The notes below the pieces were generated by a model, which saw only the letters and a list, made by a program, of their open reading frames with translations, ran no database searches and was not told where the DNA came from. Shown here in pieces: positions 1 to 38,012 of a DNA stretch of 45,504 bases. Positions within the stretch are counted from its first letter, which is position 1. Every line of letters starts with the position of its first letter. Source of the DNA: Bacteroidales bacterium (GTDB lineage Bacteria > Bacteroidota > Bacteroidia > Bacteroidales > Azobacteroidaceae); NCBI GenBank assembly GCA_031553415.1, contig JAVBLO010000087.1, forward strand, positions 1 through 45,504, written 5' to 3'. Made by a program: the position numbers and the translations under genes.

Positions 1-203
1 ACGTCATCAATGGTAACGAACCGGTTCAATGTGCCGGAAAAGCCGTTACGGGTCACCATGTTGAGGTTGCCGTTGAGGTCGTATCCCAGCCTTTCGTTGT
101 AACCGCCATGTGCCACAGACCAATCCTCTCCTTCAAAATAAGTTGAGTTCTCCAACCGGTGCAAGCCGTCATAACGGAACGAATAGCCCCGTCTAACCGT
201 CGT
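1..203 (-). pseudogene. 5'-truncated duplicate of the Rhs core (paralog fragment continuing beyond the window start)
   Basis: Positions 1-203 match 3329-3531 of the intact rhs gene with only 4 mismatches (~98% identity). Minus-strand translation gives RGYSFRYDGLHRLENSTYFEGEDWSVAHGGYNERLGYDLNGNLNMVTRNGFSGTLNRFVTIDD, 2 substitutions versus the intact gene. Homology stops abruptly at 203, where the 175-bp repeat begins. No N-terminal part is present. Confidence 0.6.
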
Positions 204-375
204 TTGCTGTGCATTGCGCTCGGCAGAAGCTCTGCTTCTGTCGTTGCTAAAAGTAAATCTCCCGATTTATATATTTGTGAAGCGGAGCTTCACTTCTAAC
301 CCGACGAAGTTAGAAACTTCGCCGAGCGCGTACTCCATTAGCCTACATTGAGCAGGGGAAAATGTTAATAAACAA
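201..375. repeat. 175-bp structured repeat, copy A (direct repeat of 9721-9894)
   Basis: Aligns base-for-base with 9721-9894: ~90% identity over the first ~105 nt, ~65% over the remainder. It contains a 13-bp stem (224-236 GAAGCTCTGCTTC / 277-289 GAAGCGGAGCTTC) enclosing a nested 6-bp stem (TAAATC / GATTTA). Confidence 0.8.
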
Positions 376-425
376 CAAAAATACCCCTGAAACTTGCTTT
401 TTTAAACAGTATCTTGCTACAATTA

Positions 426-800
426 TTATTTGATTTCTTTTCTCGAACTTCTGAGCATTAACATTAACAATGTGGATAATAAAATATTTAAAATCGGTAC
501 TACAAGAAATATTACAGTCCAATTGTTTCCATGCGATTCAAGAACAAATAACACACAGAGAAAAATCAATGATACAACAGAGTACAATAATAATGAAATA
601 CTCAACAATAAAACAATTTTTCTATTCTTAAGCCACAATAAAAATGAAACAATTATAAGACAAATACTTAACACCAAGAAAGAGGACATTACATAATTGT
701 ACACCAGCCAAACTCTCAACTCATTCAGTAATAACAGAACACCTTGCAACAACCACCAAACGAATGAAATAACTATAATTTTGTCATTTAACCACTTCAT
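426..800 (-). CDS. small multi-TM membrane protein, putative immunity protein for the adjacent orphan Rhs-CT toxin
   Basis: 124-aa ORF, last gene of the minus-strand array, 5 bp downstream of the orphan toxin ORF. The product is strongly hydrophobic with about 3-4 predicted TM helices. The region is very AT-rich and low-complexity, so the ORF could be spurious; a competing 88-aa plus-strand ORF is less plausible. Confidence 0.35.
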   Translation of the reverse strand: MKWLNDKIIVISFVWWLLQGVLLLLNELRVWLVYNYVMSSFLVLSICLIIVSFLLWLKNRKIVLLLSISLLLYSVVSLIFLCVLFVLESHGNNWTVIFLVVPILNILLSTLLMLMLRSSRKEIK

Positions 801-805
801 GGATG

Positions 806-1405
806 TTATCTCTTTATGTAAATTCCATTTGAATTATTTGTCCTTATGGCTTTAAACGATTCACTTGGAAGCCAAGAGTTATAAACCTTAGGAGGGGTGG
901 AAATAAAAGCATCTGTTTCTCTTCTAGTTATTGATGTATTTATTCCTACCGCATTCAGAGACCTTTGAACAGTAGTGGCACAATTGTTCGAGATAATACT
1001 ATAATTTTCATTTGTACTGATATCAGTAAAGGTGCTTCTTATAATGTTATCTTGTTCTGGTGTTGTTGGCAAAATATATCCTTCTGTAAAACCGTAGTTA
1101 TTAACCTCATTATCTTTGACTTGTTGCTTATTTCCTTCCGCATTGTAAGTACTCTCTAAAAATTCTTGAGGACTGTTAAATGTTTTTTCTCCCATATCAT
1201 GGTATGATTTACCTCCAAGCATACCTCCGGTTGCATTATAAACCCAGTCTCCATTCATTGAATAATATTGCCATTTCCCAGCATCATTTTGAATTAGCAT
1301 AGCTGAATGTTCTCCCTCATTGAGATTAAGAACAGTCACGCTATCTCCCCTTAAATCGATATTCCGGATAGGGTTATTTGCACATTGTGTATATAACATT
1401 GCCAT
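806..1405 (-). CDS. orphan Rhs C-terminal toxin module (retains end-of-core motif; unknown toxin domain, possibly permuted papain-like His...Cys)
   Basis: N-terminus MAMLYTQCANNPIRNIDLRGD parallels the end of the intact Rhs core ...YVYCANNPVNLIDPDGM. The rest is unrelated to the main toxin tip. It contains GEHSAML ... NNCATTV, a His-then-Cys order reminiscent of LRAT/NlpC-P60 permuted papain folds. Composition is AT-rich. Confidence 0.6.
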   Translation of the reverse strand: MAMLYTQCANNPIRNIDLRGDSVTVLNLNEGEHSAMLIQNDAGKWQYYSMNGDWVYNATGGMLGGKSYHDMGEKTFNSPQEFLESTYNAEGNKQQVKDNEVNNYGFTEGYILPTTPEQDNIIRSTFTDISTNENYSIISNNCATTVQRSLNAVGINTSITRRETDAFISTPPKVYNSWLPSESFKAIRTNNSNGIYIKR

Positions 1406-1422
1406 ACAAACATAATCTCCAA

Positions 1423-1965
1423 TTATTCTATTATATTTTCAAACTGCACCGAACTTCCCAAATATCGAGGGGCAAAAACTGTATCAGGTCTCAAATTTAC
1501 CTCCAAATTTCCTAATTCATTGTAGTAAAAATAAATGGAACGAAATATAAATAATTCTGAAGAGTTTTTTATTATCCATCCATTAGTTAGTTTTATGCTG
1601 TCAGGTTCATTCTTAATAATCCATTGGCTTTTTTCGGATACTATCAATTCATCAATAGAAGAAACATAAAAAACACGTTTATCCAAAATATCAAAATAAA
1701 ATGTTGGATTACTTTCTTCTATGAGAGATTTATAGCCAGGACCCAATAAAAAACCTTGTCGAGTAGGAACTTTTTCATTTTGCTCAAGTCCTTGGGTTGA
1801 TTTTATGAAAAAAGTATTAAATTGTGGATGTTCTTCTATGTAAGTCCCGATTACATTCTTTACATCAGCATGTAAATTTAATTCTTTGCAAAATTTTCTT
1901 TCTTGCTTACATGAAACAGTCATGAGCATCCCTAATACAACAACAAAGGATATTAAATATTTCAT
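1423..1965 (-). CDS. lipoprotein, putative cognate immunity protein of the Rhs C-terminal toxin
   Basis: 180 aa. Lipoprotein signal peptide MKYLISFVVVLGMLMTVSC. Starts 4 bp after the rhs stop, the canonical toxin-immunity arrangement. AT-rich like the toxin tip. Confidence 0.6.
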   Translation of the reverse strand: MKYLISFVVVLGMLMTVSCKQERKFCKELNLHADVKNVIGTYIEEHPQFNTFFIKSTQGLEQNEKVPTRQGFLLGPGYKSLIEESNPTFYFDILDKRVFYVSSIDELIVSEKSQWIIKNEPDSIKLTNGWIIKNSSELFIFRSIYFYYNELGNLEVNLRPDTVFAPRYLGSSVQFENIIE

Positions 1966-1968
1966 AAT

Positions 1969-4900
1969 CTACTGCCCTATTGATGGATATGTTCTCAACC
2001 AAGGAACTAATAATGTTTTTCCTGATAACAAATTATCTCTACTTCCCAATCCAGGAATAGACCTAAATCCCTCTCCTTTTACAGACCAAAATACACCATG
2101 AACCTTTCCATCATGACCTATTGTCATAATTGGAAGTCCTCCCATTGCCCTAGAATGACCAACATCGCCTCCGCTCTTGCCTGTAAAAGATGGTGTAGCA
2201 TCCTTTGACGCATCTTGATGGGTATGTACATTCCCTGTAATCTTAAATGTTTCCCCATCCTTGGTTGTGAGTTTTCCATCTTTAACAGAATATTGATATT
2301 TGCTTGGACTTGCATCATCAGCTTTATTTTTATAATCAGGTATAACTAAAATATTTCCATTTGCTAATGGATATCCACTTTCTTCGATTTTCTTCTCTGT
2401 TGCTTGTGACCACATTCGATTATATGCATCCGTTTCATTAGTGAACATAATACTACCATCCTTTCTATATGTTCCCGTCCCATATTTTACTGTCTCCCCT
2501 GCATATTTTTGATTTTCGCCTAGTTTGGAATCTTTTGTAACATTGGGGTCGTATTGTAGTGAGCGGTTCTTTTTATCATCGTTATTTATCCAATACCAAT
2601 CCATGCCATCAGGATCTATTAGGTTCACTGGGTTATTCGCGCAATAAACATACGGACTTATGCTGTAATACTTTTCGCAAAGCGGGTCCATTGTAAGAAA
2701 GCCACCCAGCGGGGAATAATATCCCCTTGCCACGAAATCATACTGATCCAACCCGAACATCCTGTCCAGTTCCTTCCCCCCGAACTTGTAGGGCTGGAAT
2801 TCCCGGTCGTTACGCCTCGGGGATTCTGCCATTACCGAACCGAAAGGGTAATAGTTCGTCACCTGGAAAGTTGTGCCCCACATGTCGAACACAACCCGGT
2901 TGTTACCCAGATGGTCTTTCAGAAAAAAGGTATGGTCGCCTGTCCCGTCATACCGGCAATACCCCTCTTCCGTGAGTACCATCGTCAGGTCTTCCCCCTG
3001 GTAAACCTTGTTACCGCAATAGGTCTTTTCCGTTTCCAAATAATTGTTCCTGTAGTGGCCCATCCTCAGTTTCCTGCCCGAAGCGTCATACACGTAACGG
3101 ATGTCGTTCCCATTGGCAAAGGTAATCTTTTGCGGCAGGTTCAACAAATTATATTCTATGCTTGTGATCCCACGGTTCTTGTCGGATGTCATGTTCCCGT
3201 TGGTATCATAGGTGTATTCGACACTGCCCCCGTTCACGTCCCTGAATTCCATCAAATCGTTAGAAGTGCCGTTGGATGCCATGTCCACCACCTCCTGCAA
3301 CCGGTTACCGTTGCGTTGCACAACATATACGTCATCAATGGTAACGAACCGGTTCGATGTGCCCGAAAAGCCGTTACGGGTCACCATGTTGAGGTTGCCG
3401 TTGAGGTCGTATCCCAGCCTTTCGTTGTAACCGCCATGCGCCACAGACCAATCCTCTCCTTCAAAATAAATTGAGTTCTCCAACCGGTGCAAGCCGTCAT
3501 AACGGAACGAATAGCCCCGTTGAAGAGCGGGTTTGTCCGCCGATTTCCAGCGGATGGCGGAAATATTCCCCGAATAATATACCTTTCCCGAAGGGTCGGG
3601 GTTGTTCGTGTAGAACAACTCTTCTGTGAATTTCGGGGAGGAGATTTTCGTCTGCCAGCCACGGATATTGTAATCGTAACCGGTTGATTCGTTGTATACC
3701 TTTTTGGAGGCGATCCTTCCCCAACCGTCATAAGTATGCCGGGAGAGGGGTATTTCAGGGTTTCCCTGTCCCGGGTTCAATTCATGGTAGGTATTCAGCA
3801 CCCTGCCTGCCCGGTCGTAGGTATAGCGGTACAATTCCGACACCCCATAGGCAAATCCCCCCCCGTCATGGTCGAGGTGTCTTTTATGGGGCAGTCCTGT
3901 AAAGGTATACGATATGGTTTCCCTGTCGTATCCGTTTGTTATATTGCTGGATACGGCTTGCACCACCCGACCCTTGTCGTCATAATAGGAGGCGGACAGC
4001 AGGTAAGTCGAATAATCGTCGAACACCAGCGTCCGGCTCCCGGTCAGCAATCCCTTGGCGGCAACCGGATCGCCGTCCGTCCCATGCCTTTTGTCATTGA
4101 ATCCTGCGGGAAGCAGGTAATCGAGATGGGTATTCGAACGGAAATGGGTCGTCTGTTTGAACAGGTAGTTGTCATAGTAATTGGCAGTTAATAATTTGGC
4201 ATCGGTGAAAGAAACCCCGGAAACGGTGTAGCCCGTCCCCAGGAAATTGTCGCCGGAGTCGGCGGAGAACACAGCCTTCACCACCGCACCGGAGTGTATG
4301 ACCGGGTTTTTGCAGGTACCTTTAAGCACCATCCGACCGAACTCGTCGGGGATCGTGAAGGTATATTCCGACCTGCTACTCTGTACGCTTTCACGAAAGA
4401 TGATCAACCGGTCGGCCTTGTCGTATTGCATCGTCGTTCCGCCCTGTCCCGGAAGCTTTTTCGCAATACACCTTTTCCAGTCATCGTACGAATAGTAATA
4501 CACATATTTGTTGATGACATCGGAGGTGATGGTCCATGATGAGTTTGTATTGAGCAGGGAAGCCGCCATGGGAGGAATCACAAAGCGTAACAGGCCGAAA
4601 TCATCATAAACGTAATAAGTGTCGTGGTTCCGGTTTTGTGACACCTGCCTTGTCAGTAACAGCTGACCCTGCGTGTCCTTGAATTCATACGACTCCTCCC
4701 CGTCTTCCCCCGTGGTTTTGGTCACATAAAGGGTGTTGGATGCGTAGTTCCCTTCTTTCTTCAAGGTATGTGAGGGCAGTACCCGGTACAGGTTGCAGTT
4801 GAGCCGTGTGTCTGCCGATATGTTGAACAGGTATTCGGTTTTGACTGCCTTGCCGTTATCATGCCACTCCTGTCCCGGCCCGAACTGTTGCAGGACGCGC

Positions 4901-5271
4901 TCAAGGGGGGAAGATTCATAGACCGTTTCGGAATAGGGCGCCCGGTCGCCGTTGATTTCCCCGGCTTTGCGGTATATATCACGGACATAGGCCCCGTTGT
5001 TGCCGGCCACGGGCGTGGGGAGGTACTGCCGCCATTCCCTGCCGAACCAGTCATATTCGGTTGCCGTCACTATGTCCTGCCCCTGTCCCCCGGCCCCTTT
5101 TTGTACCGTCTGCACGGGACGTCCCAGACCGTCGAAATAACGGATGGTTTCCATGTACTCCGTCCCGGATTCATTGGTCATCGTGCGCGTTTGGATATAA
5201 TTGCCGGAGGACTGGGGAAACACCGGGAACTGCAAGATTGAAAGCGCCGCTATGATGATATGCTGTTTCAT
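1969..5271 (-). CDS. rhs: Rhs/YD-repeat core protein (TcC-like) with Sec signal peptide and polymorphic C-terminal toxin domain
   Basis: 1100 aa. N-terminal signal-like MKQHIIIAALSILQFPVFPQ. Numerous YD repeats (YDxxGRL-like, e.g. YDGWGRI, YDASGRKL, YDGLHRL). The core ends with ...SPYVYCANNPVNLIDPDGM, the PxxxxDPxGL-type autoproteolysis motif, at about 2601-2615. The final ~210 aa (1969-2601) are AT-rich and contain no Cys. Confidence 0.88.
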   Translation of the reverse strand: MKQHIIIAALSILQFPVFPQSSGNYIQTRTMTNESGTEYMETIRYFDGLGRPVQTVQKGAGGQGQDIVTATEYDWFGREWRQYLPTPVAGNNGAYVRDIYRKAGEINGDRAPYSETVYESSPLERVLQQFGPGQEWHDNGKAVKTEYLFNISADTRLNCNLYRVLPSHTLKKEGNYASNTLYVTKTTGEDGEESYEFKDTQGQLLLTRQVSQNRNHDTYYVYDDFGLLRFVIPPMAASLLNTNSSWTITSDVINKYVYYYSYDDWKRCIAKKLPGQGGTTMQYDKADRLIIFRESVQSSRSEYTFTIPDEFGRMVLKGTCKNPVIHSGAVVKAVFSADSGDNFLGTGYTVSGVSFTDAKLLTANYYDNYLFKQTTHFRSNTHLDYLLPAGFNDKRHGTDGDPVAAKGLLTGSRTLVFDDYSTYLLSASYYDDKGRVVQAVSSNITNGYDRETISYTFTGLPHKRHLDHDGGGFAYGVSELYRYTYDRAGRVLNTYHELNPGQGNPEIPLSRHTYDGWGRIASKKVYNESTGYDYNIRGWQTKISSPKFTEELFYTNNPDPSGKVYYSGNISAIRWKSADKPALQRGYSFRYDGLHRLENSIYFEGEDWSVAHGGYNERLGYDLNGNLNMVTRNGFSGTSNRFVTIDDVYVVQRNGNRLQEVVDMASNGTSNDLMEFRDVNGGSVEYTYDTNGNMTSDKNRGITSIEYNLLNLPQKITFANGNDIRYVYDASGRKLRMGHYRNNYLETEKTYCGNKVYQGEDLTMVLTEEGYCRYDGTGDHTFFLKDHLGNNRVVFDMWGTTFQVTNYYPFGSVMAESPRRNDREFQPYKFGGKELDRMFGLDQYDFVARGYYSPLGGFLTMDPLCEKYYSISPYVYCANNPVNLIDPDGMDWYWINNDDKKNRSLQYDPNVTKDSKLGENQKYAGETVKYGTGTYRKDGSIMFTNETDAYNRMWSQATEKKIEESGYPLANGNILVIPDYKNKADDASPSKYQYSVKDGKLTTKDGETFKITGNVHTHQDASKDATPSFTGKSGGDVGHSRAMGGLPIMTIGHDGKVHGVFWSVKGEGFRSIPGLGSRDNLLSGKTLLVPWLRTYPSIGQ

Positions 5272-5282: not shown

Positions 5283-8200
5283 TTATTTTTGATAATGATA
5301 CTTATAAGTTTCTATCACCCGCCCGTCGTTGTCCTTCAGTTCCCGCAGCCTCAGGAAATCGTCATACTCGAAGGCTTGCCTGGCGCCTCCGGGGTTGGTG
5401 ATGGCTTTGAGTCCCACCAGCGGTTCATAAGAAAAGGAGGTGGCGACCGCCCTGGGCAACCCTGTTTGCAACAGGCCGTTGTCCAGGCTGTTGGGTGACG
5501 AGTTCACGGTGAATTGTTCTGGTGTCATGCCCAGGCATACGCCCACCTGTTCGTAAGTGGCCCCCTTGATTTCGGCCAAAGGGGAATTTACCAGTTTGTT
5601 CCACAGGTAAATAACCCTGATGGAATCATCCTGGGTAATATGCACCGGATTCCCGTAAGCATCATAGTTGTGGTATCGTATCCTCTCCCTTGGCGCAGCG
5701 CTGTTGGTTTGTGAGGATATTTTCCAGGGGAACACGCCCGTGGGGAACACCTTGTAGCCGGCATGCACGGTGGTTGCCATGCTGCCTTTCGTCACGGATT
5801 CTTTCAGCAGCGTCCCGATTCTCCAACGGCTATCGGACATCAACTGCTTCCGGGCAGTTTCTTCTTCACCGGACAATACCAGGTCGTGTGGATAGTAACG
5901 GCGGACATCCAGCTGTTTGCCGTCGCTGGCCGTCGTCCTGATACGGGTTGGATAGAGCAGCACTGGGTTATTGTATTCATACGAGGTTTCCGTTTCCAGG
6001 CTCTTTTTCCCCCGGGAGTCGAATTGGACACGGTATTCGTTGGATAGCCGGAGGCAGCCGCTGTAGATTTCGTAAGGGTGGTGTACAAGTTCCTCCAAAT
6101 AAGTCCTGCTAAAGCAAGCGGTTTCATCGGGGTCAGGGTCATATACTCGTGTTTTTTGTTCCACTTTCCCCACCGGTATGTCTTTCCTGTTATATGTGGA
6201 ATACCAATAATGCACACTATCTACAGGTACCAACACCCCATTGTCTACCTTGTAGTTGCTGCATGACACCAGCTTCCCTTTCAGCCAGTCCGCCTTGGGG
6301 TCCAAAGTGATGGAGGTTCCGGGAACCCTGTGAGTATTATACTCCAGGTCATAGTTGAGGCCGTATTGATACCTGGTCAACCCCGCTTTCTCCATCTCAT
6401 CTTCCGAATGGTAAACGTGTTTATATTCACTGACCCATTCATACAGCACAGGTGCACCTCCCGCATGGGACAGGTTGATGACGGGGGAAGAACTGTAAGT
6501 GCGTGAACGGAATTGGTCAAAATAATCCGCAGCATAATCTATAAACGCCCCCCCAATATAAAGTCTTTTCCATTTTACATACAAGTTTTCCCGTTCCACC
6601 ATATAATCATCGATGTCAGGTATTTTCCTGGGGATTCCATATCCGTTCCCATCCAATCCGTAGGAGAATTCCTTAAAGACATGCTGGAGATTGGTGTTGT
6701 CTATCTCCCTGATTTGATGTATCCTTAATCCCCCTGCCAGTTTTGGGGTGTCATGTTCATAATCATAATACCGGTTTGCCTGGTAGAAAAACATGGTTTC
6801 CCCTCCGGTGGGATAAATGATTTTGGTCAACACCCCGGCCTGCATGTATTCTTCATCGGGTTCTTTTGAGGCGCTTCCGATCGTTGTCATCCGGTGATAC
6901 CCCCACCCGCCGGGAAGTCCGACGCTTACCTCGGCCAGGGGGACGGCGCTTTGGCTGCCGTCATTGGCCGTACCGTTGTAATACCCCCAATGGTCGGTGT
7001 TTTTATCAATAACGGAGGGCATGGGGATTTGAGTGTTGTATTCAAACCGGTACCGTTCCTCCACTTTTCCCTGCCGGTCAAGGATTTGCAGGGAGTCGAG
7101 TTTATATCTTCCTACTCCACCCAATACCGGAAGGAAACAGTTCTGGAAAAACCGGATTTCGCGCACGGTGTTACCTGAATTGCCACAGACTTTGATGGAG
7201 TTCAGCATCCTGCCCCCATCTACTTTGTGTATGATTTCAAACTTGACAATTCCCGCAGAAAACCTGATCTCCTTCACTTTCCTCATTAAAACAGAATGGT
7301 TCGACAGGTAGTATCTCCCATCGGCAAGGTCAGCATGATCATTGTATTCCCGGAAAATGCTCTCATCCCCATCATGAAGTATTTGAAATATCTCGAAACA
7401 ATTGCTTATCCTGGTCTTCTTTACAGGGAGGAAATACGATACGGGTTCATGATTTGTATAAAGAAATTCATAAACCGGATGCTCTAATAATGTGACATAA
7501 TCCGTCTGGCAGAAAGTCGTTTCCCAAATCGGTTCGTGGTATGAAAAGGATATCTGCCTACCGCTTATCCCTGATCGCATCTTACTCGCTTTCCAGGCGG
7601 TTGAAACAGTTTGGTGGGGATTGGGGACATAGGTGGAAAGTTCGGAATTTTCATATGGGAACTCATAATGAATCCCTTTTTCATCAGTGATGTTGAAGTC
7701 CGGGTTGAGATTGAAATTGGAAATTATTTTCAATGGCTCATAGGGATGAGGCACTATGATGGCCGTATCCCGGGTCCGGGGTTGCCTGCTATAGTAAAAG
7801 GAGCCTGTCTTGTCTGCCAGTTTGTAATGGAAGTCGTCAGGTTCTTCATCTTCCAGGCCGTCAACTATTCTCAACAAGTAGAGGTTTTCATGTTCATTAT
7901 AGCCTAAATTTTGAGAATTTGTCCTCAAATATCCCCTATCGTCGGCTACCCCATTGATATTACTAGAAATGAACGGCTCAGCATTCAGCGTCCAGCCCAA
8001 TCCGACCCACCCGTTGGGCTCGTTCACCTTGATTCCGGAAGAATGGTAGCTCAAGGTGATGGGAAGCTTTAAATCGCCATCCTGTATTTCGTAAAGGGGG
8101 ATTTCTATCCGGACAAGCCCCGTGCCGTAATTCACCGGGTAATTGATATACTTTGCCAGTGAAGCCGCTTCGGGGGAAACAGGTGTAATCCTCGGAAAAT

Positions 8201-8378
8201 CGGTTGTTAACTGTGGTTGGGTGGAAGATGATCTGAGCATCATCCGGGTCGTGTCATGGGGAAACGGGACCAGGGAATCGATGCTTGTGAATACAACTTG
8301 CGCCTGTGTGTTCAAAAGAATGAAACACGGGAGCAATGCAAGGATAGTTTTCATAATGAATATAAGTCTGTTCGTCAT
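5283..8378 (-). CDS. SpvB/TcB-like protein with Sec signal peptide, C-terminal YD repeats (B-component-like partner of the Rhs core)
   Basis: 1031 aa. Likely true start is the internal MKTILALLPCFILLNTQAQ (signal peptide). The SpvB-domain hallmark PVNYGTGLVRIEIPLYEIQDGDLKLPITLSYHSSGIKVNEPNGWVGLGWTLN compares with TcB's LSLPLPIS...FTLNYNSG...GLGWD. It ends with YD-repeat-like ...FEYDDFLRLRELKDNDGRVIETYKYHY. Its stop lies 11 nt upstream of the rhs ATG, in a different frame. Confidence 0.75.
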   Translation of the reverse strand: MTNRLIFIMKTILALLPCFILLNTQAQVVFTSIDSLVPFPHDTTRMMLRSSSTQPQLTTDFPRITPVSPEAASLAKYINYPVNYGTGLVRIEIPLYEIQDGDLKLPITLSYHSSGIKVNEPNGWVGLGWTLNAEPFISSNINGVADDRGYLRTNSQNLGYNEHENLYLLRIVDGLEDEEPDDFHYKLADKTGSFYYSRQPRTRDTAIIVPHPYEPLKIISNFNLNPDFNITDEKGIHYEFPYENSELSTYVPNPHQTVSTAWKASKMRSGISGRQISFSYHEPIWETTFCQTDYVTLLEHPVYEFLYTNHEPVSYFLPVKKTRISNCFEIFQILHDGDESIFREYNDHADLADGRYYLSNHSVLMRKVKEIRFSAGIVKFEIIHKVDGGRMLNSIKVCGNSGNTVREIRFFQNCFLPVLGGVGRYKLDSLQILDRQGKVEERYRFEYNTQIPMPSVIDKNTDHWGYYNGTANDGSQSAVPLAEVSVGLPGGWGYHRMTTIGSASKEPDEEYMQAGVLTKIIYPTGGETMFFYQANRYYDYEHDTPKLAGGLRIHQIREIDNTNLQHVFKEFSYGLDGNGYGIPRKIPDIDDYMVERENLYVKWKRLYIGGAFIDYAADYFDQFRSRTYSSSPVINLSHAGGAPVLYEWVSEYKHVYHSEDEMEKAGLTRYQYGLNYDLEYNTHRVPGTSITLDPKADWLKGKLVSCSNYKVDNGVLVPVDSVHYWYSTYNRKDIPVGKVEQKTRVYDPDPDETACFSRTYLEELVHHPYEIYSGCLRLSNEYRVQFDSRGKKSLETETSYEYNNPVLLYPTRIRTTASDGKQLDVRRYYPHDLVLSGEEETARKQLMSDSRWRIGTLLKESVTKGSMATTVHAGYKVFPTGVFPWKISSQTNSAAPRERIRYHNYDAYGNPVHITQDDSIRVIYLWNKLVNSPLAEIKGATYEQVGVCLGMTPEQFTVNSSPNSLDNGLLQTGLPRAVATSFSYEPLVGLKAITNPGGARQAFEYDDFLRLRELKDNDGRVIETYKYHYQK

Positions 8379-8400: not shown

Positions 8401-9519
8401 TTAATGTATTTTCAAGATTTTCGCCCCGACAGGATAGTCATCGAACCACATATTGAGGACATATTCGCCCGGAATAAATGGGGACATGGGGATTGACAGG
8501 TGATGGACGCCCGCAGCCAGGGCTCCGTAACTCCGTTGCCACAAAATCTTTCCCATCCGGTCACCCAACTGCATCCTGACCTGCCCGGTTCCAGGCATGT
8601 AAATCTCCGCTTCAAGGTTCGTGACCACGGGATTGGGATAGAAATTATATGTCAGGCCAGCCCAGGGACCTTCCGCACCGCTTACCCCCAAGGAAGGGTC
8701 TTCCCGGACAGACAGGTTTTCGACGTCTTCCACCGGGTAAACATGTTTCTTTGGTGGATAAAAGAAGGAGACTTCCTCAGGAAGAACAGTCTCATCATAT
8801 TGTGTCGTGGTGTTGCGTACGGTCTCAAAAATGGGGTAGCGGTATCCTTTTGCATACCAGCGGTATGTTTCGGTTTCATGTATCGGTAAGAGGGATAAGG
8901 CCCTGTCGATACTGTCGGAAGAAACAATGCTGTCAACCGTATCCCGACCGGCAAATGTGATGGGTCGTGACGTATCGGCCGTTTTCACGACAGTTCGCAC
9001 CCGTATCACGTGATGCAAGGTGTCCTTACCGGGAAGGATAAGCATCCCGAGTGCATCGGCATGGAAGGATAAAGTTCCCATTGAAGTGGTTTTTAACCGG
9101 TCGCAATATTTCCCCTTACCGGAAAAATAGCCATGTCCATAATCGCCATAACGGACAGGAAATTTCATTAACAACGCAGGTTGCCGGTATCTGAGCAATG
9201 TGGAGGCATTCTCAAATCCCCAGAATAACAGGGAATCTCCCGACAGGCAATAGTAATAGGAAGTTTCCCTTTCGGTTCCCACAACCAAAGAATCGTTTAA
9301 TGCATGGTAAGTGAGTTTGTACTCTTCTTCGGTTACCTTCAGCCGGCTGAAGTCCCAAAGTACATTCTCTCCCGAACGGCCGGGATCTTTGTACTCTACC
9401 TGTTGCCTGGTGATTTCATCACCTGCCCGGTACATGTTGTGCTTGTTTTGCAAGCTGTGTTGGGCAAACAAAGGAAATAACCCGGCAATGGAAAGGAATA
9501 ACGTGAGTTTTGTTTTCAT
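8401..9519 (-). CDS. secreted protein with T9SS C-terminal sorting domain, first gene of the Rhs operon-like array
   Basis: 372 aa. Signal peptide MKTKLTLFLSIAGLFPLFAQ. The C-terminal ~80 aa, ...FYPNPVVTNLEAEIYMPGTGQVRMQLGDRMGKILWQ...PGEYVLNMWFDDYPVGAKILKIH, fit the Por/T9SS CTD pattern (YPNP ... GxYxL ... KIxK). The N-terminal domain is unrecognised. Confidence 0.7.
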   Translation of the reverse strand: MKTKLTLFLSIAGLFPLFAQHSLQNKHNMYRAGDEITRQQVEYKDPGRSGENVLWDFSRLKVTEEEYKLTYHALNDSLVVGTERETSYYYCLSGDSLLFWGFENASTLLRYRQPALLMKFPVRYGDYGHGYFSGKGKYCDRLKTTSMGTLSFHADALGMLILPGKDTLHHVIRVRTVVKTADTSRPITFAGRDTVDSIVSSDSIDRALSLLPIHETETYRWYAKGYRYPIFETVRNTTTQYDETVLPEEVSFFYPPKKHVYPVEDVENLSVREDPSLGVSGAEGPWAGLTYNFYPNPVVTNLEAEIYMPGTGQVRMQLGDRMGKILWQRSYGALAAGVHHLSIPMSPFIPGEYVLNMWFDDYPVGAKILKIH

Positions 9520-9720
9520 AACACCATCTTAAAATTAAATAATAGTTTTATAAATTAACGTGAAACAGGTATTTTTTAATAAAAACAAAGAAAACTCACA
9601 ATTGTTTAATAAAAATATATGTTATTTAGCATAAAAATGAAAAAATGACTATCCTGTGATTATGGGTACGGAGGCAGTCATAACGTTTCTTAGGAAGCGA
9701 TGAGCCCCTGTTCGCCGCAG

Positions 9721-9894
9721 TCTGCTGTGCGTTGCGCTCGGCAAAAGCTCTGCTTTTGTCGTTGTTAAAAGTAAATCTCCTGATTTACATACCTGTTGAA
9801 GCAGAGCTTCACTTCTAACTCGACATAGTGAAAGACATTATGCCGAACGCTATACTATCAGACTATGCTCAACAGGGGGTTACTGTAATAAATG
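9721..9894. repeat. 175-bp structured repeat, copy B
   Basis: Direct repeat of 201-375. It is preceded at about 9650-9720 by a degenerate remnant of the same rhs-core sequence that precedes copy A (gtcataacg...gcccc). The outer stem is conserved, with compensatory changes relative to copy A. Confidence 0.8.
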
Positions 9895-10015: not shown

Positions 10016-10519
10016 GTGGCTTTAAGCCACTGTATTACAAGTATGGCATCCCACTTAAGAAAAAGGTCAGATGCTAATACTTATGCCAAACAATACAGGA
10101 CATCAAGATCTGATTGTAAAAACTGCAAATTGCGACAAGAATGCATAGGAAAACGTGTCCATAAGTCTCTGGAAGACACTTTGGATAAACCTTATTATGA
10201 GAGAATGTACAAAAGGGTTAATACAAAGACGGGAGCAAAGATGATGAGAGTAAGGGCAGCTACAGTGGAACCGGTATTAGGAACATTACTCCATTTTGTT
10301 GGAATGAAGAAAGTTTATACCAAAGGGATTGATTTGGCGAACAAACATGTTCTGTTGGCTTCTACTGCTTATAATGTCAAGAAACTATTAAAGTTCAAGG
10401 GAATAGACAGTGGGATTAAATCAGTACTGAATGCTTGTATTAAAGGTAAAGATGGAATTCTTATCGTTATCACAGACTTAGCTGAACGGGGGAACTACAA
10501 TCTCACTGTTTATAATGAA
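10016..10519 (+). mobile_element. IS1182/IS5-like transposase, 5'-truncated C-terminal remnant
   Basis: The ORF (193 aa as listed) has the CKNCKLRQEC Cys motif and ...TVEPVLGTLLHFVGMKKVYTKGIDLANKHVLLASTAYNVKKLLKF, typical of the C-terminus of IS1182-family DDE transposases. The N-terminal ~250 aa, including the catalytic region, are absent. It is immediately right of repeat copy B. Confidence 0.6.
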
Positions 10520-10592
10520 GTCGGGGTACAAAGGTCTTGTAGTCGGAGTACAAAACATATGTACTCCGACTACAAGACCTTTGTACCCCGAC
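10520..10592. repeat. perfect palindrome: 32-bp arms (GTCGGGGTACAAAGGTCTTGTAGTCGGAGTAC) with a ~9-nt loop, at the 3' end of the transposase remnant
   Basis: Direct inspection: 10520-10551 is the exact reverse complement of 10561-10592. The listed ORF reads through it, which is probably artefactual. Confidence 0.85.
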
Positions 10593-10745
10593 TATAGAAA
10601 TTAAATGCTCTTAGCATCTGCTTCAAAAAGTAACTGATTCGGTTTTGTAAGACATAGAAATTATCAATTAACTTTGTAACCTGAATTTACTTTCCTGTGT
10701 CATATCTGTACAAACTAATTATTAACATTTTTATAAATACAGATT

Positions 10746-17500: not shown

Positions 17501-19699
17501 TTATAAATCTTCTCGCTTCCATGTTTTCAGCCGTTCCAAGTGAGTAAAAAGAGTTGTATCTGAGCCTTCAAGATAAACAATAGCATTGGGGTCAATATCT
17601 AAAAAAGCATCGGGGTCAATTATTATTCTACCTGAGCCTTTTATATATAATTTACCTCCATCCATGATTTTCAGGGTACTTCCCTTTTTGATTCTTAATT
17701 CGGCATTGGGATTTAGTTCATAAATGCTGTTTTTTTCAATTATGAGAGAGCTTCCCCGTTTCACTTTGACAATAGAATTTGTTTCTTGTTTAAAGTAAGA
17801 ATTTTCCCTGCAGTGAAATGCGGTTGGGTTGATAAAATTTCCTTCATCGTTATGGGTATGCCTGTTAGGAGTTCCACCTTTATCAATCGACAAGGCAATT
17901 CCTTCATTGATAACAATATCCGGCCTGTTATCTTGTGTTATATCCGGCAAATAAATAGTTCCGCAATAACGGATATTATTATTTATTATCACATCATTGA
18001 AAGTAATTTTTATTTTGGCATTGCCTTCTGCATCATAATCCAGGATTTTAACGGAAATGCCATTCAGGACAAATGGATTCAACCTGAATTCTTTTTCGTT
18101 ATATATAGGAACATTTACCAGTCCGGGGTTTGAATCCATAGACAATTTTTGATTTTTTTTGAAAGTAATATCATGTCCTAAAAAATCATAAGTAAATTCA
18201 TTATCTTTCATCCTGACAAAGCATCCTTCATTTTTTTTGCCGGGACGAATGCTGTTATAATGTGTATCTAAAGAAATAATCCCGTTGGAATCAAAATCAG
18301 CACGGATAACTTCAGCCCTGCTTTGTCCGGCAATAGGATTCGGCTCCACCTCTTTGAAACTGTATAATTTATGTTTCCTCCTGAAACAAGGATCTATAAA
18401 TGAAAGCCCGAATTCATAATCATGGCTGCCTTCCGGATGCAGGCATTGTATTCCATTGGTAGTTCCTATATTTCCCCAAACGAGATGAGGTTTTGTTTTA
18501 TCATCTTGTATGCTTTCAATATAAGCCACTATCCCCCATGAGTGTTGAGGTATTTCATTTTTACAGCCATCATATAAAATAGAACTTTTATCAAAAATAG
18601 ATTTACCCTGATGGTTTTCCAACCATAAATAATGATTTTTAATCCCATTGCCGGGTATTTTTATCCTGATTATGTCGCCGGTCGTCATAAAATCCCTTAG
18701 AGTATATTCTCCGGAAGCATTTAAATCAGCTTCCTTTTTAATATCTGCATTTTCCCCATTGGCCTTAATACTATTAATCCAATCGAGATACCATTTTTCC
18801 CAACCTAATACACACAAAAACGGGGAGAAATTTAACGACATCATACCCCACCCCAGATTACCATAAAAATAATCACCTACGAGTTCATTGGCATAAGCAT
18901 AATGAGGACATTCAAAAATACTGTGTGCAATTTCATGGATGAATAAATGGAAAAAGTCTACGGAGGCCGAAGTCTGGGTAAATCCGCTTTGGTCGAAAAT
19001 ATAGCCGTTGAAGTCTATACCTGTTGTTCCATCCAATATGGCATATCCTCCATTGGAACCTCCCCAAGCGTCTATGTTATGTACAGGTTTTTGAATCATC
19101 TTATTGTGACTCCGGTATATGACAATAATGTAATCCGGTTTTTTATCAGGAGAATACAAACTGGCATCTTTTCTGTAAGAAGGCCTGTTTTCCCTCAGGT
19201 CGTATCTTGACCAATCAAAACCGGGATTTTCTTCTTTCAGCTTTTCGATTACCCTTCTGTTCAGTTGGCTCCAACTGCTGGCTCCACTTGCATCAATATT
19301 TATCCTTTTGGGATATACATCAGCAATCAACCTGAATTTTGAATGCGACATCTGGTAATAAAAGTATGATACATTTTTATCCTGATTTGCAAGAGGGCGT
19401 TCTGAAAAATCAGAAAAATCAGACAAAAAAGTGGATTTATCCTTTAATTTATCAGGAATAGCATCAGGCTCTTTACTCCAGCCTTGCATTTCAAAATTAT
19501 CGTATGGTTCACCGAATCCAGCGCAGATCACCAAAACTCTGAGGTCTCCTTTCGGAGTTAGAACATTTCCATATCCGGAATAAAATCCGGTTTTTCCCAC
19601 CTTTGAATCGGTATTTTGATTATAGTACGCATTCAATTGTTCTGTTTCAATGGTTAGGGCGGCAATTAATAATTGCCAGTAAAGGTTTAAGCTTTTCAT
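17501..19699 (-). CDS. large secreted protein with HExxH zinc-metallopeptidase motif
   Basis: 732 aa. Contains FIHEIAHSIFECPHY. The C-terminal third is rich in beta-helix-like repeats (IKKGSTLKIMDGGKLYIKGSGRIIID...). Confidence 0.5.
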   Translation of the reverse strand: MKSLNLYWQLLIAALTIETEQLNAYYNQNTDSKVGKTGFYSGYGNVLTPKGDLRVLVICAGFGEPYDNFEMQGWSKEPDAIPDKLKDKSTFLSDFSDFSERPLANQDKNVSYFYYQMSHSKFRLIADVYPKRINIDASGASSWSQLNRRVIEKLKEENPGFDWSRYDLRENRPSYRKDASLYSPDKKPDYIIVIYRSHNKMIQKPVHNIDAWGGSNGGYAILDGTTGIDFNGYIFDQSGFTQTSASVDFFHLFIHEIAHSIFECPHYAYANELVGDYFYGNLGWGMMSLNFSPFLCVLGWEKWYLDWINSIKANGENADIKKEADLNASGEYTLRDFMTTGDIIRIKIPGNGIKNHYLWLENHQGKSIFDKSSILYDGCKNEIPQHSWGIVAYIESIQDDKTKPHLVWGNIGTTNGIQCLHPEGSHDYEFGLSFIDPCFRRKHKLYSFKEVEPNPIAGQSRAEVIRADFDSNGIISLDTHYNSIRPGKKNEGCFVRMKDNEFTYDFLGHDITFKKNQKLSMDSNPGLVNVPIYNEKEFRLNPFVLNGISVKILDYDAEGNAKIKITFNDVIINNNIRYCGTIYLPDITQDNRPDIVINEGIALSIDKGGTPNRHTHNDEGNFINPTAFHCRENSYFKQETNSIVKVKRGSSLIIEKNSIYELNPNAELRIKKGSTLKIMDGGKLYIKGSGRIIIDPDAFLDIDPNAIVYLEGSDTTLFTHLERLKTWKREDL

Positions 19700-19837
19700 A
19701 GTAAGTTGATTTTTGAAATATGTTTTCTCTCTCTCTATAAAGGAAACAAGGACTTACAGAAAAAGGTTTTATCAATAATGGTTAATTAATTCTAAAAACA
19801 GATATTCAAAACGGGCACGATTTGAACCGGCTAAAAT

Positions 19838-24670: not shown

Positions 24671-24777
24671 AGGTATTTATATAAAAAGAATTATCGGAAG
24701 TTATTAGAATTCAACCGGGAGTTACCGGAATAAATTCTCCTGATAAATTCCGATAACTTCTGATTAAATTCCAAAAA

Positions 24778-26859: not shown

Positions 26860-26864
26860 AATAA

Positions 26865-27566
26865 TTAAATAGTAAATTCTTTTGTTACGTAATATGTCTT
26901 TTTATCCTCACTTTCGTCAACGACCATTACTTGGTCGCCGTATCTTATTTCTTCTCCGGTCATACTAATGACATTCAGTTTCATCGGATTCTTTTCAATG
27001 AAAAATTCGGCAAAACCAATCTTCTTGTCTTTGATGGTAGACAACATCTTTCCTGAGCGTCCGAGAAAATCAATTCCCTCCTCGCCCTGATATCCTATTT
27101 CCTTAAAAAATCTTGCCATAGGTGTGGTCGCAAATTTAGTTAAAATTATTCCGATACCAAGCAATGGGATCAGAATCAATATAGATTTCCAGCCCCAGGT
27201 ATCTACAGCTATCATTTGAGTGGTTATCAGGGTTCCTATCCATGTGAAAAATTTCAACGTAGAAAATATCAGCATGAAAGGGACTTTCCCGACATTCAGG
27301 AATTCCAGGAATTTTACGAATGGTCCGTGCACTTTTTCTGTGGGGACATCATGGTCGGGATCCGGATCATGGTTTACATCGTGAACGTGTCCGTCTAACC
27401 CTGCATCAACATTTGCATCCACATCGAAATCAGCACCCAGGTCAATATCTCCGAATCCGATGCCGCCAATCAAAACGAATAGCCAATACAGAACAATAAC
27501 TGCCATTATCCCAGTCATAATGGCATTGGGAAGGGGATGAATTAAGTGGTGCCAGAGTTCTGCCAT
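26865..27566 (-). CDS. NfeD/YqiJ-like membrane protein (flotillin partner)
   Basis: 233 aa, 5 bp upstream of the flotillin gene. Acidic DxD-rich region, several TM helices and a C-terminal soluble beta-rich domain. This resembles the yqiJ-yqiK pairing. Confidence 0.55.
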   Translation of the reverse strand: MAELWHHLIHPLPNAIMTGIMAVIVLYWLFVLIGGIGFGDIDLGADFDVDANVDAGLDGHVHDVNHDPDPDHDVPTEKVHGPFVKFLEFLNVGKVPFMLIFSTLKFFTWIGTLITTQMIAVDTWGWKSILILIPLLGIGIILTKFATTPMARFFKEIGYQGEEGIDFLGRSGKMLSTIKDKKIGFAEFFIEKNPMKLNVISMTGEEIRYGDQVMVVDESEDKKTYYVTKEFTI

Positions 27567-27616
27567 AGTAGTGTATGTAGTTTAATTGACAAAGATAAAA
27601 ATGATATTTATTATAT

Positions 27617-27937
27617 TCATTTATAAATATTCCTCAACCACGGAATTTTTGAAAAAAACCGATACAGTTTTGTTTCAAACTTTGTTGGTTGCAAATCTTC
27701 TTCCTGAAGGAAACCTCCATCTTTCAAAATCCGGACGGCCCGCTCCACATCATCTTCCATAACCTGCAGTTTCACTCCTCCAATCGCTGTAGATATAAAA
27801 GGGTGAACCTGCGAAGTTAATTCATCCTGAACAAAACAATATATTCCTTCCGATTCCAATAAGCTTTGCGCAATACCTATTTCATGCGAAAAAACAAATG
27901 TTTTGACGGTTACAAGTTTGTTTCCTTTTTCTGACAT
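27617..27937 (-). CDS. DUF2007-like small protein
   Basis: 106 aa. LVTVKTFVFSHEIGIAQSLLESEGIYCFVQDE matches the DUF2007 pattern. Confidence 0.5.
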   Translation of the reverse strand: MSEKGNKLVTVKTFVFSHEIGIAQSLLESEGIYCFVQDELTSQVHPFISTAIGGVKLQVMEDDVERAVRILKDGGFLQEEDLQPTKFETKLYRFFSKIPWLRNIYK

Positions 27938-28041
27938 TGTTTTAACTTCGTATATTATTCTGTAATTGTTTGCAATTTGCTATGCACAATTAAATTGCAA
28001 TTAATTGCCATATATTGCGCTAACGGCTAATTGCTTTAATT

Positions 28042-37949: not shown

Positions 37950-37954
37950 CAATG

Positions 37955-38012
37955 AAAAATGAACAATGAAAAATTGAAAATCTTAAAAATTAATTTTTCA
38001 TTGTTCATTTTT
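37955..38012 (+). terminator. rho-independent terminator of purL (perfect 21-bp-arm AT-rich palindrome)
   Basis: AAAAATGAACAATGAAAAATT (37955-37975) is the exact reverse complement of 37992-38012. A T-rich tract follows. It lies between the purL stop and the next gene on the same strand. Confidence 0.6.

What the first reader, a model, noticed from the sequence alone, without database searches (positions are those of the whole stretch)
1..203. Second, 5'-truncated rhs-core copy starting exactly at the repeat junction
The window opens inside an rhs paralog, on the minus strand and reading out of the window, that is 98% identical to the intact gene over 203 nt. It begins abruptly at the equivalent of rhs residue ~580 with no N-terminal half, directly fused to repeat copy A. 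The downstream rhs piece probably carries a different C-terminal toxin beyond the window edge. The locus would then hold at least three alternative toxin tips (main, orphan at 806-1405, and this one). The near-identical 200-bp core segments are substrates for homologous recombination that would swap toxin tips onto the expressed core.
Basis: seen in the sequence. Interest (0 to 1): 0.55.

Follow-up and report, generated by a model that had tools for sequence, protein, structure and literature searches.

The report
Start-less orphan rhs fragment beside repeat
The window opens inside a real second copy of the middle of an Rhs toxin gene that has no start of its own and abuts a structured repeat: an ordinary "orphan" toxin module of a known kind, whose toxin end lies outside the window.

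Summary
Window 1-192 (minus strand) is 188/192 identical to 3329-3520 of the intact 1100-aa DUF6443-Rhs gene (1969-5271). Homology stops at 192/193, not 203. It covers Rhs residues 585-648, keeps the frame, has no start codon, and has an in-frame stop about 75 nt upstream.

It abuts "repeat copy A", with 6 nt (ACGGGG) shared at the join. That repeat is not locus-specific. It is a ~172-176-nt branched palindromic element ("E": 187-358 and 9705-9880). I found 11 further copies, full or partial, in a Dysgonamonadaceae MAG and seven metagenome contigs. They lie beside Rhs-immunity, Tae4-immunity and toxin-antitoxin modules, and end at the same E terminus wherever that terminus is held. No Rfam family matches.

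Best reading: an orphan rhs C-terminal module downstream of main rhs - immunity - orphan tip - immunity, as in Salmonella LT2. It could be fused to the expressed gene by homologous recombination that deletes 3,328 bp.

Whether it carries a different toxin could not be tested: no public contig extends the window leftwards. Linkage to the locus rests on one assembly path through a multi-copy repeat.

The rhs part is a new member of a known kind. The E-delimited cassette pattern is the less ordinary observation.

The parts
1..192 (-). 5'-truncated rhs core fragment (equivalent to main Rhs residues 585-648). The frame is open and reads out of the window. It has no start codon.
   Evidence: 188/192 identity to 3329-3520. 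Translation RRGYSFRYDGLHRLENSTYFEG... with an in-frame stop upstream and no start codon.
187..192 (-). 6-nt overlap (ACGGGG on the minus strand) shared by the conserved 3' terminus of element E and rhs codons 584-586; this is the junction.
   Evidence: The E family consensus ends ...CTTAACGGGG. The main gene reads CAACGGGGCTAT at 3511-3522, minus strand.
187..358 (-). Element E, copy A ('repeat copy A'): a 172-nt branched palindromic repeat bounded by CCCC...GGGG.
   Evidence: Direct repeat with 9698-9836. Aligned with the other copies. Folds with z = -3.3 to -4.9. No Rfam match.
426..800 (-). 124-aa multi-pass membrane protein, candidate immunity for the orphan tip.
   Evidence: Translation. 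52% identical to the gene that follows the orphan-tip homologue in L016.
806..1405 (-). Short orphan Rhs toxin tip (199 aa) that begins with the core-end motif.
   Evidence: 32 homologues, several annotated RHS repeat-associated. 59% identical to the L016 orphan.
1423..1965 (-). 180-aa lipoprotein-like gene, candidate immunity for the main tip.
   Evidence: Translation with a signal/lipobox-like N-terminus. No family hit.
1969..5271 (-). Intact main Rhs gene: signal peptide, DUF6443, RHS repeats, Rhs-associated core at 807-890, then a ~210-aa C-terminal tip.
   Evidence: Pfam DUF6443 at 3.8e-39 and RHS_repeat at 6.3e-15. TIGR03696 Rhs_assc_core at 807-890. Translation.
3329..3520 (-). Segment of the main gene homologous to 1-192; the recombination partner.
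5283..8378 (-). 1031-aa upstream partner gene of the Rhs operon.
   Evidence: No Pfam or NCBIfam hit. 26-41% identical to the 1034-aa gene that precedes a DUF6443-Rhs in L014.
8401..9519 (-). 372-aa first gene of the apparent operon, function unknown.
   Evidence: ORF list. No family hit.
9705..9880 (-). Element E, copy B. It lies ~185 nt upstream of the first operon gene.
   Evidence: 96% identical over 74 nt to the Dysgonamonadaceae MAG copy.
9665..9704 (-). Flank of copy B with weak similarity to the rhs sequence that follows copy A (CGTTATGAC(T)GC, 11/12). Possibly a remnant of the same E|rhs junction.
   Evidence: Local alignment score reached by 31 of 2000 shuffles. Weak.
10016..10597 (+). 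IS1182-family transposase remnant (C-terminal ~115 aa only) at the right edge of the island, ending in a perfect 34-nt hairpin.
   Evidence: Pfam DDE_Tnp_1_6. NCBIfam transpos_IS1182, profile positions 374-487 of 488. Inverted repeat I1.

Best explanation
The first 192 bases are the 5' edge of an orphan rhs C-terminal module. This is a silent, start-less copy of the second half of the Rhs shell gene.

It lies downstream of, and co-oriented with, the expressed DUF6443-Rhs gene and its two toxin-tip/immunity pairs. By analogy, it presumably continues leftwards into its own toxin tip and immunity gene.

The fragment begins where rhs codon 585 was joined to the fixed 3' terminus of a dispersed structured repeat (E) through 6 nt of microhomology. 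I infer an illegitimate join made when a block of DNA ending in E was placed upstream of an older rhs C-terminal half. That is C-terminal displacement: one homologous crossover in the core and one microhomology join.

On its own the fragment cannot make a closed Rhs shell or be exported. Its likely role is as a reservoir. RecA-type recombination between 1-192 (plus whatever homology lies beyond the window) and 3329-3520 would excise 3,328 bp. That stretch holds main residues 585-1100, both immunity genes, the short orphan tip and E copy A. The result would fuse the expressed N-terminal half to the orphan's C-terminal half.

Shown: the duplicate, its frame, the missing start codon, the junction, the array layout and the dispersed nature of E.

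Inferred: a distinct toxin beyond the edge, the displacement history, and that recombination occurs.
For: - 188/192 identity over 64 in-frame codons, with exact runs of 74, 50, 30 and 27 nt.
- No start codon, and an in-frame stop upstream.
- Layout main rhs - candidate immunity - orphan tip - candidate immunity - E - rhs fragment, all on the minus strand.
- Tips and candidate immunity genes are 29-38% G+C against ~50% for the core, as expected for acquired tips.
- The orphan tip and its immunity partner recur together in another orphan island, which holds further core-bearing orphans (L016).
- E's 3' terminus lies directly before other toxin reading frames: a Tae4 domain in L005 and a glycine-zipper/HExxH ORF in L006. 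E also follows an Rhs-immunity pair in L003.
- The 6-nt overlap at the join is ACGGGG; by my own comparison with the E family consensus, up to 7 nt (AACGGGG) are shared.
- Main/orphan recombination over 522 bp of 95% identity was demonstrated in Salmonella LT2 (PMC3967940).
- A 6-nt overlap cannot cause a de Bruijn mis-join, and the 4 SNPs show this is not a copied contig end (inference).
Against: - Only 192 nt of the fragment are visible. Nothing shows that it continues as an intact ORF, or that it ends in a different toxin with an immunity gene.
- No relative closer than 47% identity exists in the protein database, and no public contig extends the window.
- Two independent Logan assemblies of the same sequence stop at window 390 and 632, before E. 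They do not confirm that 1-192 is linked to this locus through the multi-copy element.
- The short orphan tip at 806-1405 is not preceded by E, so E is not needed for every module.
- Copy B lies upstream of the whole operon, which a simple displacement story does not explain.
- No evidence of recombinant subpopulations was available.
Confidence: 0.58

Rival explanations
1. Inert remnant. The fragment is a decaying pseudogene left by a rearrangement next to a mobile or REP-like repeat. It has no intact toxin downstream and no role in tip swapping.
For: No start codon and an in-frame stop upstream. It adjoins a dispersed repeat that an IS110 element has interrupted in another contig (L004). An IS1182 remnant marks the island edge. 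Copy B may retain only ~35 nt of a similar rhs piece, which shows such pieces do decay.
Against: Identity to the main gene is 98% with an intact frame over 64 codons, while the adjoining E copies have diverged to 82%. That argues for recent origin or ongoing gene conversion rather than long neglect.
Confidence: 0.2
2. E-delimited cassette system. E is the boundary or recombination site of mobile toxin-immunity and toxin-antitoxin cassettes, analogous to integron attC sites or to the intergenic repeats of Bacteroidales rAID-1 clusters. On this reading the rhs fragment is the first gene of the next cassette, placed there by site-specific recombination at E's 3' terminus.
For: Thirteen E copies, full or partial, in 9 loci lie beside Rhs-immunity, Tae4-immunity, glycine-zipper toxin-immunity, HicAB, MazF-like and MNT modules or small secreted immunity-like genes. 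The arrays read E-module-E and are co-oriented. The junction with the downstream sequence falls at the same E terminus (...GGGG) in every copy whose 3' end is held. The structure is conserved, with 11 of 43 pairs changed on both sides. rAID-1 clusters have repetitive intergenic sequences 'reminiscent of integrons' (bioRxiv 10.1101/471110).
Against: No tyrosine recombinase or integrase is encoded in the 45.5-kb window. E lacks the attC arrangement of RYYYAAC at the 5' end and GTTRRRY at the 3' end on one strand (read by eye). One partial copy lies between housekeeping genes (L008). The 6-nt overlap with rhs fits an illegitimate join as well as a site-specific one. The short orphan tip has no E.
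Confidence: 0.12
3. Stand-alone expression. E supplies a promoter or structured 5' leader, and the truncated rhs is transcribed and translated from an internal start. It would then act with its immunity gene as a toxin-antitoxin-like module, as reported for the Salmonella orphan.
For: E lies 45-190 nt upstream of start codons of co-oriented genes in L003, L004, L007 and at copy B. In the predicted E structure, G-U cells on the gene-sense strand outnumber A-C cells by 13 to 7 by my count. A TAnnTTTG motif (TATTTTTG) lies at 383 on the minus strand. A paper abstract reports TA-like function of Salmonella rhs orphans (PMC7043789).
Against: No in-frame start codon lies at or near the junction; by my reading of the sequence, the first in-frame ATG is ~46 codons into the fragment. 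Promoter and terminator scans are at chance level, and there is no -33 TTTG. Half an Rhs shell has no known function.
Confidence: 0.05
4. Assembly artefact. The left end is a chimeric or strain-variant join through the multi-copy E element, so 1-192 is not physically downstream of this locus.
For: E is multi-copy. Independent Logan contigs identical to the window end at 390 and 632 and do not cross E. The fragment sits at the very edge of the window.
Against: The E|rhs join shares only 6 nt, so it must exist in reads. The 4 SNPs exclude a duplicated contig end. The longest exact run between copies A and B is 16 nt, too short for a k-mer mis-join between them. Other, closer E copies in the same genome cannot be excluded.
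Confidence: 0.05

Closest known systems
Orphan rhs-CT/rhsI modules downstream of a main rhs gene (Salmonella Typhimurium LT2 STM0291/STM0292; PMC3967940, and PMC3150448 by title and abstract only)
   Same: A start-less, 5'-truncated rhs piece lies co-oriented downstream of a full-length rhs and its immunity gene. It shares near-identical core sequence with the main gene (here at least 192 nt at 98%; LT2 has 522 bp at 95%). The predicted outcome of recombination is fusion of the main N-terminus to the orphan C-terminus.
   Different: The host is a Bacteroidota-type Sec-signal/DUF6443 Rhs, not a T6SS PAAR/VgrG-linked enterobacterial Rhs. The truncation lies much deeper in the shell (residue 585 of 1100, about 300 aa of core retained if the copy parallels the main gene). 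The junction is with a structured repeat element. The toxin and immunity gene of this orphan are unseen.
C-terminal displacement model of rhs evolution (Jackson et al. 2009; cited from my own knowledge, not read here)
   Same: A new C-terminal block is placed on the main gene, and the former C-terminus is pushed downstream and keeps some core sequence.
   Different: Here the downstream join is an identifiable 6-nt microhomology with the end of a repeat element. The history itself is inferred, not shown.
Recombinase-associated acquired interbacterial defence clusters (rAID-1) of Bacteroidales (bioRxiv 10.1101/471110)
   Same: Co-oriented, low-G+C toxin- and immunity-related genes are separated by repetitive intergenic sequences, in the order Bacteroidales.
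   Different: No XerD-like recombinase is seen. The array contains a complete expressed Rhs operon and toxin fragments, not mainly immunity genes. I could not compare the E sequence with the rAID-1 motifs, because the figures are not held.
REP/REPIN elements and their RAYT transposases; IS110-family targeting of REPs (from my own knowledge)
   Same: E is short, multi-copy, intergenic and strongly palindromic, with compensatory changes and repeated GCGTAG motifs. One copy is interrupted by an IS110-family element (L004). In an unrelated contig (L011) a Y1 transposase flanked by inverted repeats sits 14 nt upstream of an rhs orphan that starts about 10-14 codons upstream of the equivalent point.
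   Different: E is longer and branched (four hairpins closed by a stem). No RAYT was found near any E copy. Its association with toxin, immunity and TA modules is not a known REP property.

Membership tests
Rhs/YD-repeat polymorphic toxin (main gene 1969-5271) | RHS/YD repeats plus an Rhs-associated core domain, followed by a variable C-terminal tip | tested here: met
   Pfam RHS_repeat at 6.3e-15 and DUF6443 at 3.8e-39. TIGR03696 Rhs_assc_core at residues 807-890, followed by ~210 aa with no family.
Orphan rhs-CT module | Sequence homologous to the core of a full-length rhs gene in the same locus | tested here: met
   188/192 nt and 62/64 aa identical to main residues 585-648.
Orphan rhs-CT module | Lacks the N-terminal region and its own translation start | tested here: met
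   Homology begins at codon 585. An in-frame stop lies ~75 nt upstream and there is no ATG, GTG or TTG in between.
Orphan rhs-CT module | Downstream of, and co-oriented with, the main gene and its immunity gene | tested here: met
   All are on the minus strand, in the order 5271->1969, 1965->1423, 1405->806, 800->426, E, 192->1. Physical linkage rests on this assembly alone.
Orphan rhs-CT module | Ends in a distinct C-terminal toxin domain followed by a cognate immunity gene | not testable with these tools
   This lies beyond the window edge. No extending contig or protein was found.
Orphan rhs-CT module | Recombines with the main gene to express the orphan tip | not testable with these tools
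   Needs reads or experiments. Precedent only (PMC3967940).
rAID-1 cluster | XerD-like tyrosine recombinase gene at the 5' end of the array | tested here: not met
   No recombinase among the window ORFs scanned with Pfam. An IS1182 remnant lies at the 5' side. The region left of the window is unseen.
rAID-1 cluster | Two or more co-directional genes of at most 41% G+C, with repetitive intergenic sequences | tested here: inconclusive
   The tips and candidate immunity genes are 29-38% G+C, and E recurs. However, the core genes are ~50% G+C, and only two E copies are in the window.
Integron attC site (for element E) | R'' RYYYAAC at the 5' end and R' GTTRRRY at the 3' end of one strand, pairing with each other; an integron integrase nearby | tested here: not met
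   Read by eye on the family alignment. GCTTAAC (RYYYAAC-type) sits at the 3' end of the gene-sense strand, with no matching box at the other end. No integrase in the window. No attC covariance model was available.
REP/REPIN element (for element E) | Short, multi-copy, intergenic palindromic repeat | tested here: met
   13 copies, full or partial, in 9 loci. Structure conserved, with 11 of 43 pairs changed on both sides.
REP/REPIN element (for element E) | Cognate RAYT (Y1 transposase) in the same genome | not testable with these tools
   None in the window or in the loci that hold E. Complete genomes are not available.
MITE (for element E) | Terminal inverted repeats and target-site duplication | tested here: inconclusive
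   The ends are imperfectly inverted (CCCC..GCGTAG / CTACGC..GGGG). No consistent flanking duplication is seen.
Known RNA family (for element E) | Match to an Rfam covariance model | tested here: not met
   Nothing at gathering thresholds in the whole window. Only chance-level hits at E <= 10 in 100-450.

The most novel reading that the evidence does not exclude
Element E may be the boundary or recombination site of a cassette system not described before. The system would occur in a Dysgonomonadaceae-type Bacteroidales lineage and would assemble arrays of polymorphic-toxin/immunity and toxin-antitoxin modules.

It would resemble integrons or rAID-1 in effect, but with a different, branched ~175-nt site. 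Start-less toxin fragments such as this rhs piece would be joined at a fixed nucleotide of E.

On this reading, the E|rhs585 junction is a product of that system rather than a random deletion end.
Probability: 0.12. Interest if true: 0.65.

Novelty: new member of a known kind. Interest (0 to 1): 0.35.

Why it matters
If the fragment continues into a different toxin, this locus holds at least three alternative toxin tips behind one delivery shell. A single homologous crossover could then change the weapon the bacterium deploys. This is the mechanism shown experimentally in Salmonella, here in a Sec/DUF6443-type Rhs of Bacteroidota, where it has been studied less.

That alone is an expected variation on a known theme.

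The less expected point is the neighbouring element. A conserved, branched, ~175-nt repeat recurs at the edges of toxin-immunity and toxin-antitoxin modules in several contigs. It meets the downstream sequence at the same terminal nucleotides wherever that end is held. If it proves to be a recombination site or a regulatory RNA, it would be a handle on how these arsenals are assembled.

Tried and rejected
**Extending the window leftwards**
- Exact-protein look-ups of the 124-aa and 199-aa genes returned only two short Logan contigs (SRR23967709 and SRR23967707). They are 100% identical to window 390-2834 and 632-2584 and stop before E.
- The main Rhs is not on record.
- A search with the 64-aa fragment found no protein sharing enough words.
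- The best homologue of core residues 585-890 is only 47% identical.
- The single genome and metagenome scans returned E copies but no E|rhs junction.

**A recurrent breakpoint near residue 585**
- I considered that many 400-530-aa homologues starting M[TINS]WK...RGYxFxYD prove a recurrent breakpoint there. I rejected this as proof.
- One such protein (P0004, L014) results from a frameshift in a full-length gene.
- L003's Rhs ORF simply runs off the fetched locus.
- The length distribution of hits may be shaped by short contigs.
- Only L011 (after a Y1 transposase) and L013 look like true orphans on long contigs.

**A and B as a recent segmental duplication**
- Rejected. They are 82% identical, no closer to each other than to copies elsewhere.
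- Their 5' flanks are not significantly similar.
- The 3' flank similarity is weak (31 of 2000 shuffles reach it).

**E as an integron attC site**
- The core-site arrangement does not fit.

**Other negative searches**
- E as a known RNA: no Rfam match.
- E in phage or plasmid collections: none.
- Sigma-70-type promoter and terminator scans around both E copies were at chance level.

Full report
**1. The observation**

Window 1-192 is a direct repeat of 3329-3520 with 188 of 192 bases identical (blastn E = 3e-97). The four differences are at 28, 36, 111 and 142, which leaves exact runs of 27, 74, 30 and 50 nt.

After 192 the two sequences are unrelated.

The partner segment lies inside the 1100-aa ORF 1969-5271 on the minus strand. 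That ORF has a signal-peptide-like N-terminus, a DUF6443 domain (3.8e-39), RHS repeats and an Rhs-associated core domain at residues 807-890. About 210 residues with no family match follow.

The fragment corresponds to residues 585-648 and keeps the frame: RRGYSFRYDGLHRLENSTYFEG...VTIDD, 62 of 64 residues identical. It reads out of the window. Upstream in the same frame there is a stop about 75 nt away and no ATG, GTG or TTG before the homology. It is thus a real, 5'-truncated, start-less rhs core copy.

**2. The surroundings**

Downstream of the main gene, all on the minus strand, lie:
- a 180-aa lipoprotein-like ORF (1423-1965);
- a 199-aa ORF (806-1405), which opens with the end-of-core motif (CANNPIRNIDLRGD against CANNPVNLIDPDG in the main gene);
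- a 124-aa multi-pass membrane ORF (426-800);
- the repeat;
- the rhs fragment.

G+C falls from about 50% in the core to 29-38% in the tips and candidate immunity genes.

The 199-aa tip has 32 homologues, several of them named RHS repeat-associated. In a wastewater contig (L016), a 59%-identical tip is followed by a 52%-identical homologue of the 124-aa gene. Two further orphans that retain core residues ~782-895 come next.

Upstream of the main gene are a 1031-aa and a 372-aa gene with no family match. The 1031-aa gene is 26-41% identical to the gene that precedes a DUF6443-Rhs in another contig (L014), so the operon type is conserved.

The rest of the window is ordinary chromosome: hybrid-cluster protein, purL, topoisomerase IV/gyrase subunit A, PspA, LemA and an ECF sigma factor. 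No recombinase is present. An IS1182 transposase remnant lies at 10016-10597.

**3. The repeat is a dispersed structured element**

'Repeat copy A' (187-358) and 'copy B' (9705-9880) are 82% identical and share no exact run longer than 16 nt.

A 25-nt pattern from the repeat found one copy among the GTDB species representatives, in a Dysgonamonadaceae MAG (JAIRVZ010000014.1, L003). A 29-nt pattern found seven metagenome contigs holding nine matches. A tenth, partial copy appeared by blastn at the end of L005. With the L003 copy, that makes 11 further copies outside the window, some of them partial.

Copies A and B are no closer to each other than to these other copies, which are 77-96% identical to them.

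The family consensus runs from CCCCTTGCTCGGCGTAG... to ...GCCGAGCGCAAYGCACAACAAGCTACGCTTAACGGGG.

RNAalifold on nine copies predicts a stem (GCGCUCGG/CCGAGCGC) that closes four hairpins. Of 43 predicted pairs, 11 are changed on both sides with pairing kept.

Single copies fold well on either strand, with z-scores of -3.3 to -4.9. No Rfam family matches. The element was absent from the viral contig collection (exact 29-nt pattern) and from the plasmid collection (blastn).

**4. The junction**

E's conserved 3' terminus (...ACGGGG in copy A) overlaps the rhs homology by 6 nt, at 187-192. The main gene reads CAACGGGGCTAT at the equivalent place.

A six-base overlap is what an illegitimate, microhomology-mediated join leaves. 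It is far too short to cause a k-mer mis-assembly. Together with the four SNPs, this makes a simple assembly artefact unlikely for the junction itself.

What remains unconfirmed is linkage through E. E is multi-copy, and the two Logan contigs identical to the window end at 390 and 632.

**5. The company E keeps**

| Locus | Arrangement |
|---|---|
| L003 | Follows an Rhs C-terminal region and a 132-aa gene; precedes a BspA-LRR/T9SS gene |
| L005 | Immediately followed by a Tae4 amidase domain (1.8e-17) with no start codon except a TTG inside E; then a signal-peptide protein; then a second, partial E |
| L006 | Followed by a glycine-zipper/HExxH ORF (first ATG 48 nt after E); then a TonB_C lipoprotein |
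| L004 | Two copies flank a HicAB-like pair (by my reading of the translations); the downstream copy is followed by an MNT-like gene; one copy is cut by an IS110-type element |
| L007 | Two copies flank an antitoxin/MazF-like pair (by my reading of the translations) |
| L009, L010 | Follows small signal-peptide, immunity-like genes |
| L008 | A partial copy lies among housekeeping genes |

In every copy whose 3' end is held, the downstream sequence begins right after the same ...GGGG terminus. The reading frame across E differs between cases, so E is not a translated leader.

This pattern recalls the 'repetitive intergenic sequences reminiscent of integrons' of Bacteroidales rAID-1 clusters (10.1101/471110). 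However, the defining XerD-like recombinase is not in the window, and E does not show the attC core-site arrangement.

**6. Mechanism**

The best-supported reading is the classical one. The fragment is an orphan rhs C-terminal module, a silent reservoir that can be joined to the expressed gene by homologous recombination.

A crossover between the two direct repeats would remove 3,328 bp. That stretch holds main residues 585-1100, both immunity candidates, the short orphan tip and E copy A.

In Salmonella LT2 exactly this kind of event was demonstrated, over 522 bp of 95% identity. It was proposed to follow a duplication, so that the main immunity gene is retained (PMC3967940).

For the origin of the fragment, I infer displacement: a block ending in E was laid over an older gene, with a homologous crossover in the core and a microhomology join at codon 585.

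That the fragment is 98% identical to the main gene while E copies A and B have drifted to 82% suggests recent origin or gene conversion.

**7. What does not fit, and what led nowhere**

- Copy B lies upstream of the whole operon. Its flank carries a weak resemblance to the rhs sequence after copy A (11/12 over CGTTATGACxGC; 31 of 2000 shuffles reach the score). This could mean that the E|rhs585 junction is older than both copies. I leave it unexplained.
- Many database homologues of 400-530 aa start at M[TINS]WK..RGYxFxYD, just upstream of the equivalent of residue 585. At least one of these is a frameshift artefact, and short contigs bias the lengths. I therefore do not claim a recurrent breakpoint.
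- Two cases on long contigs do look like true orphans starting near there. One of them lies 14 nt after a Y1 transposase flanked by inverted repeats (L011). The other is L013.

**8. Verdict**

As an rhs orphan this is a new member of a well-known kind. The E element and its association with toxin, immunity and TA modules is the part that deserves a follow-up.

Noticed in passing
window 187-358 and 9705-9880; L003 2272-2466; L004 1420-1612 and ~2440-2560; L005 172-356 and 1236-1320; L006 1-58; L007 197-374 and 1043-1220; L008 1033-1092; L009 1112-1283; L010 1303-1482: A family of ~175-nt branched palindromic elements ('E'). It has conserved CCCC...GGGG ends and 11 of 43 predicted pairs changed on both sides. 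It matches no Rfam family. It recurs at the edges of Rhs-immunity, Tae4-immunity and toxin-antitoxin modules in a Dysgonamonadaceae MAG and in metagenome contigs.
   Followed up: partly
window 10016-10597, hairpin 10519-10593: Remnant of an IS1182-family transposase (last ~115 aa only) at the right edge of the rhs island. It ends in a perfect 34-nt inverted repeat with a 7-nt loop.
   Followed up: partly
window 9665-9704: The flank of E copy B weakly resembles the rhs sequence that follows E copy A (11/12 over CGTTATGACxGC; 31 of 2000 shuffles reach the score). It may be the decayed trace of a second E|rhs junction.
   Followed up: partly
L011 8830-9760: In an unrelated 109-kb contig, a 276-aa Y1 (IS200/RAYT-type) transposase is flanked by inverted repeats (GGGGACGGTTCTCAGTGATCCACTTTT). 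It lies between an SpvB/FG-GAP Rhs with an Imm26-like gene and a 496-aa DUF6443-class rhs orphan. The orphan's ATG is 14 nt after the repeat, and it starts about 10-14 codons upstream of the point equivalent to the start of the window fragment.
   Followed up: partly
L014 4165-7967: A DUF6443-Rhs gene is called as two proteins (723 + 499 aa) because of a frameshift near the equivalent of residue ~570; one frame reads straight through. This is a warning that short 'orphan-like' Rhs proteins in databases can be artefacts.
   Followed up: yes
window 25268-25453: Four copies of a 33-nt unit (70-73% identical to the reference copy) inside the 693-aa ORF 24778-26859, which has no Pfam match. This probably encodes an 11-residue protein repeat.
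   Followed up: no
window 37941-38024 and 41121-41157: AT-rich inverted and direct repeats (AATGAAAAATGAACAATGAAAAAT-type) at both ends of a ~3.1-kb block that encodes a TPM-domain protein, an S41 peptidase and a DUF3316 protein.
   Followed up: no
window 17501-28743: A run of co-oriented genes: a 1610-aa DUF3686/DUF7902/AAA protein, unannotated 732-aa and 693-aa proteins, and YqiJ-like, DUF2007 and PspA genes. This may be a stress or defence module.
   Followed up: no
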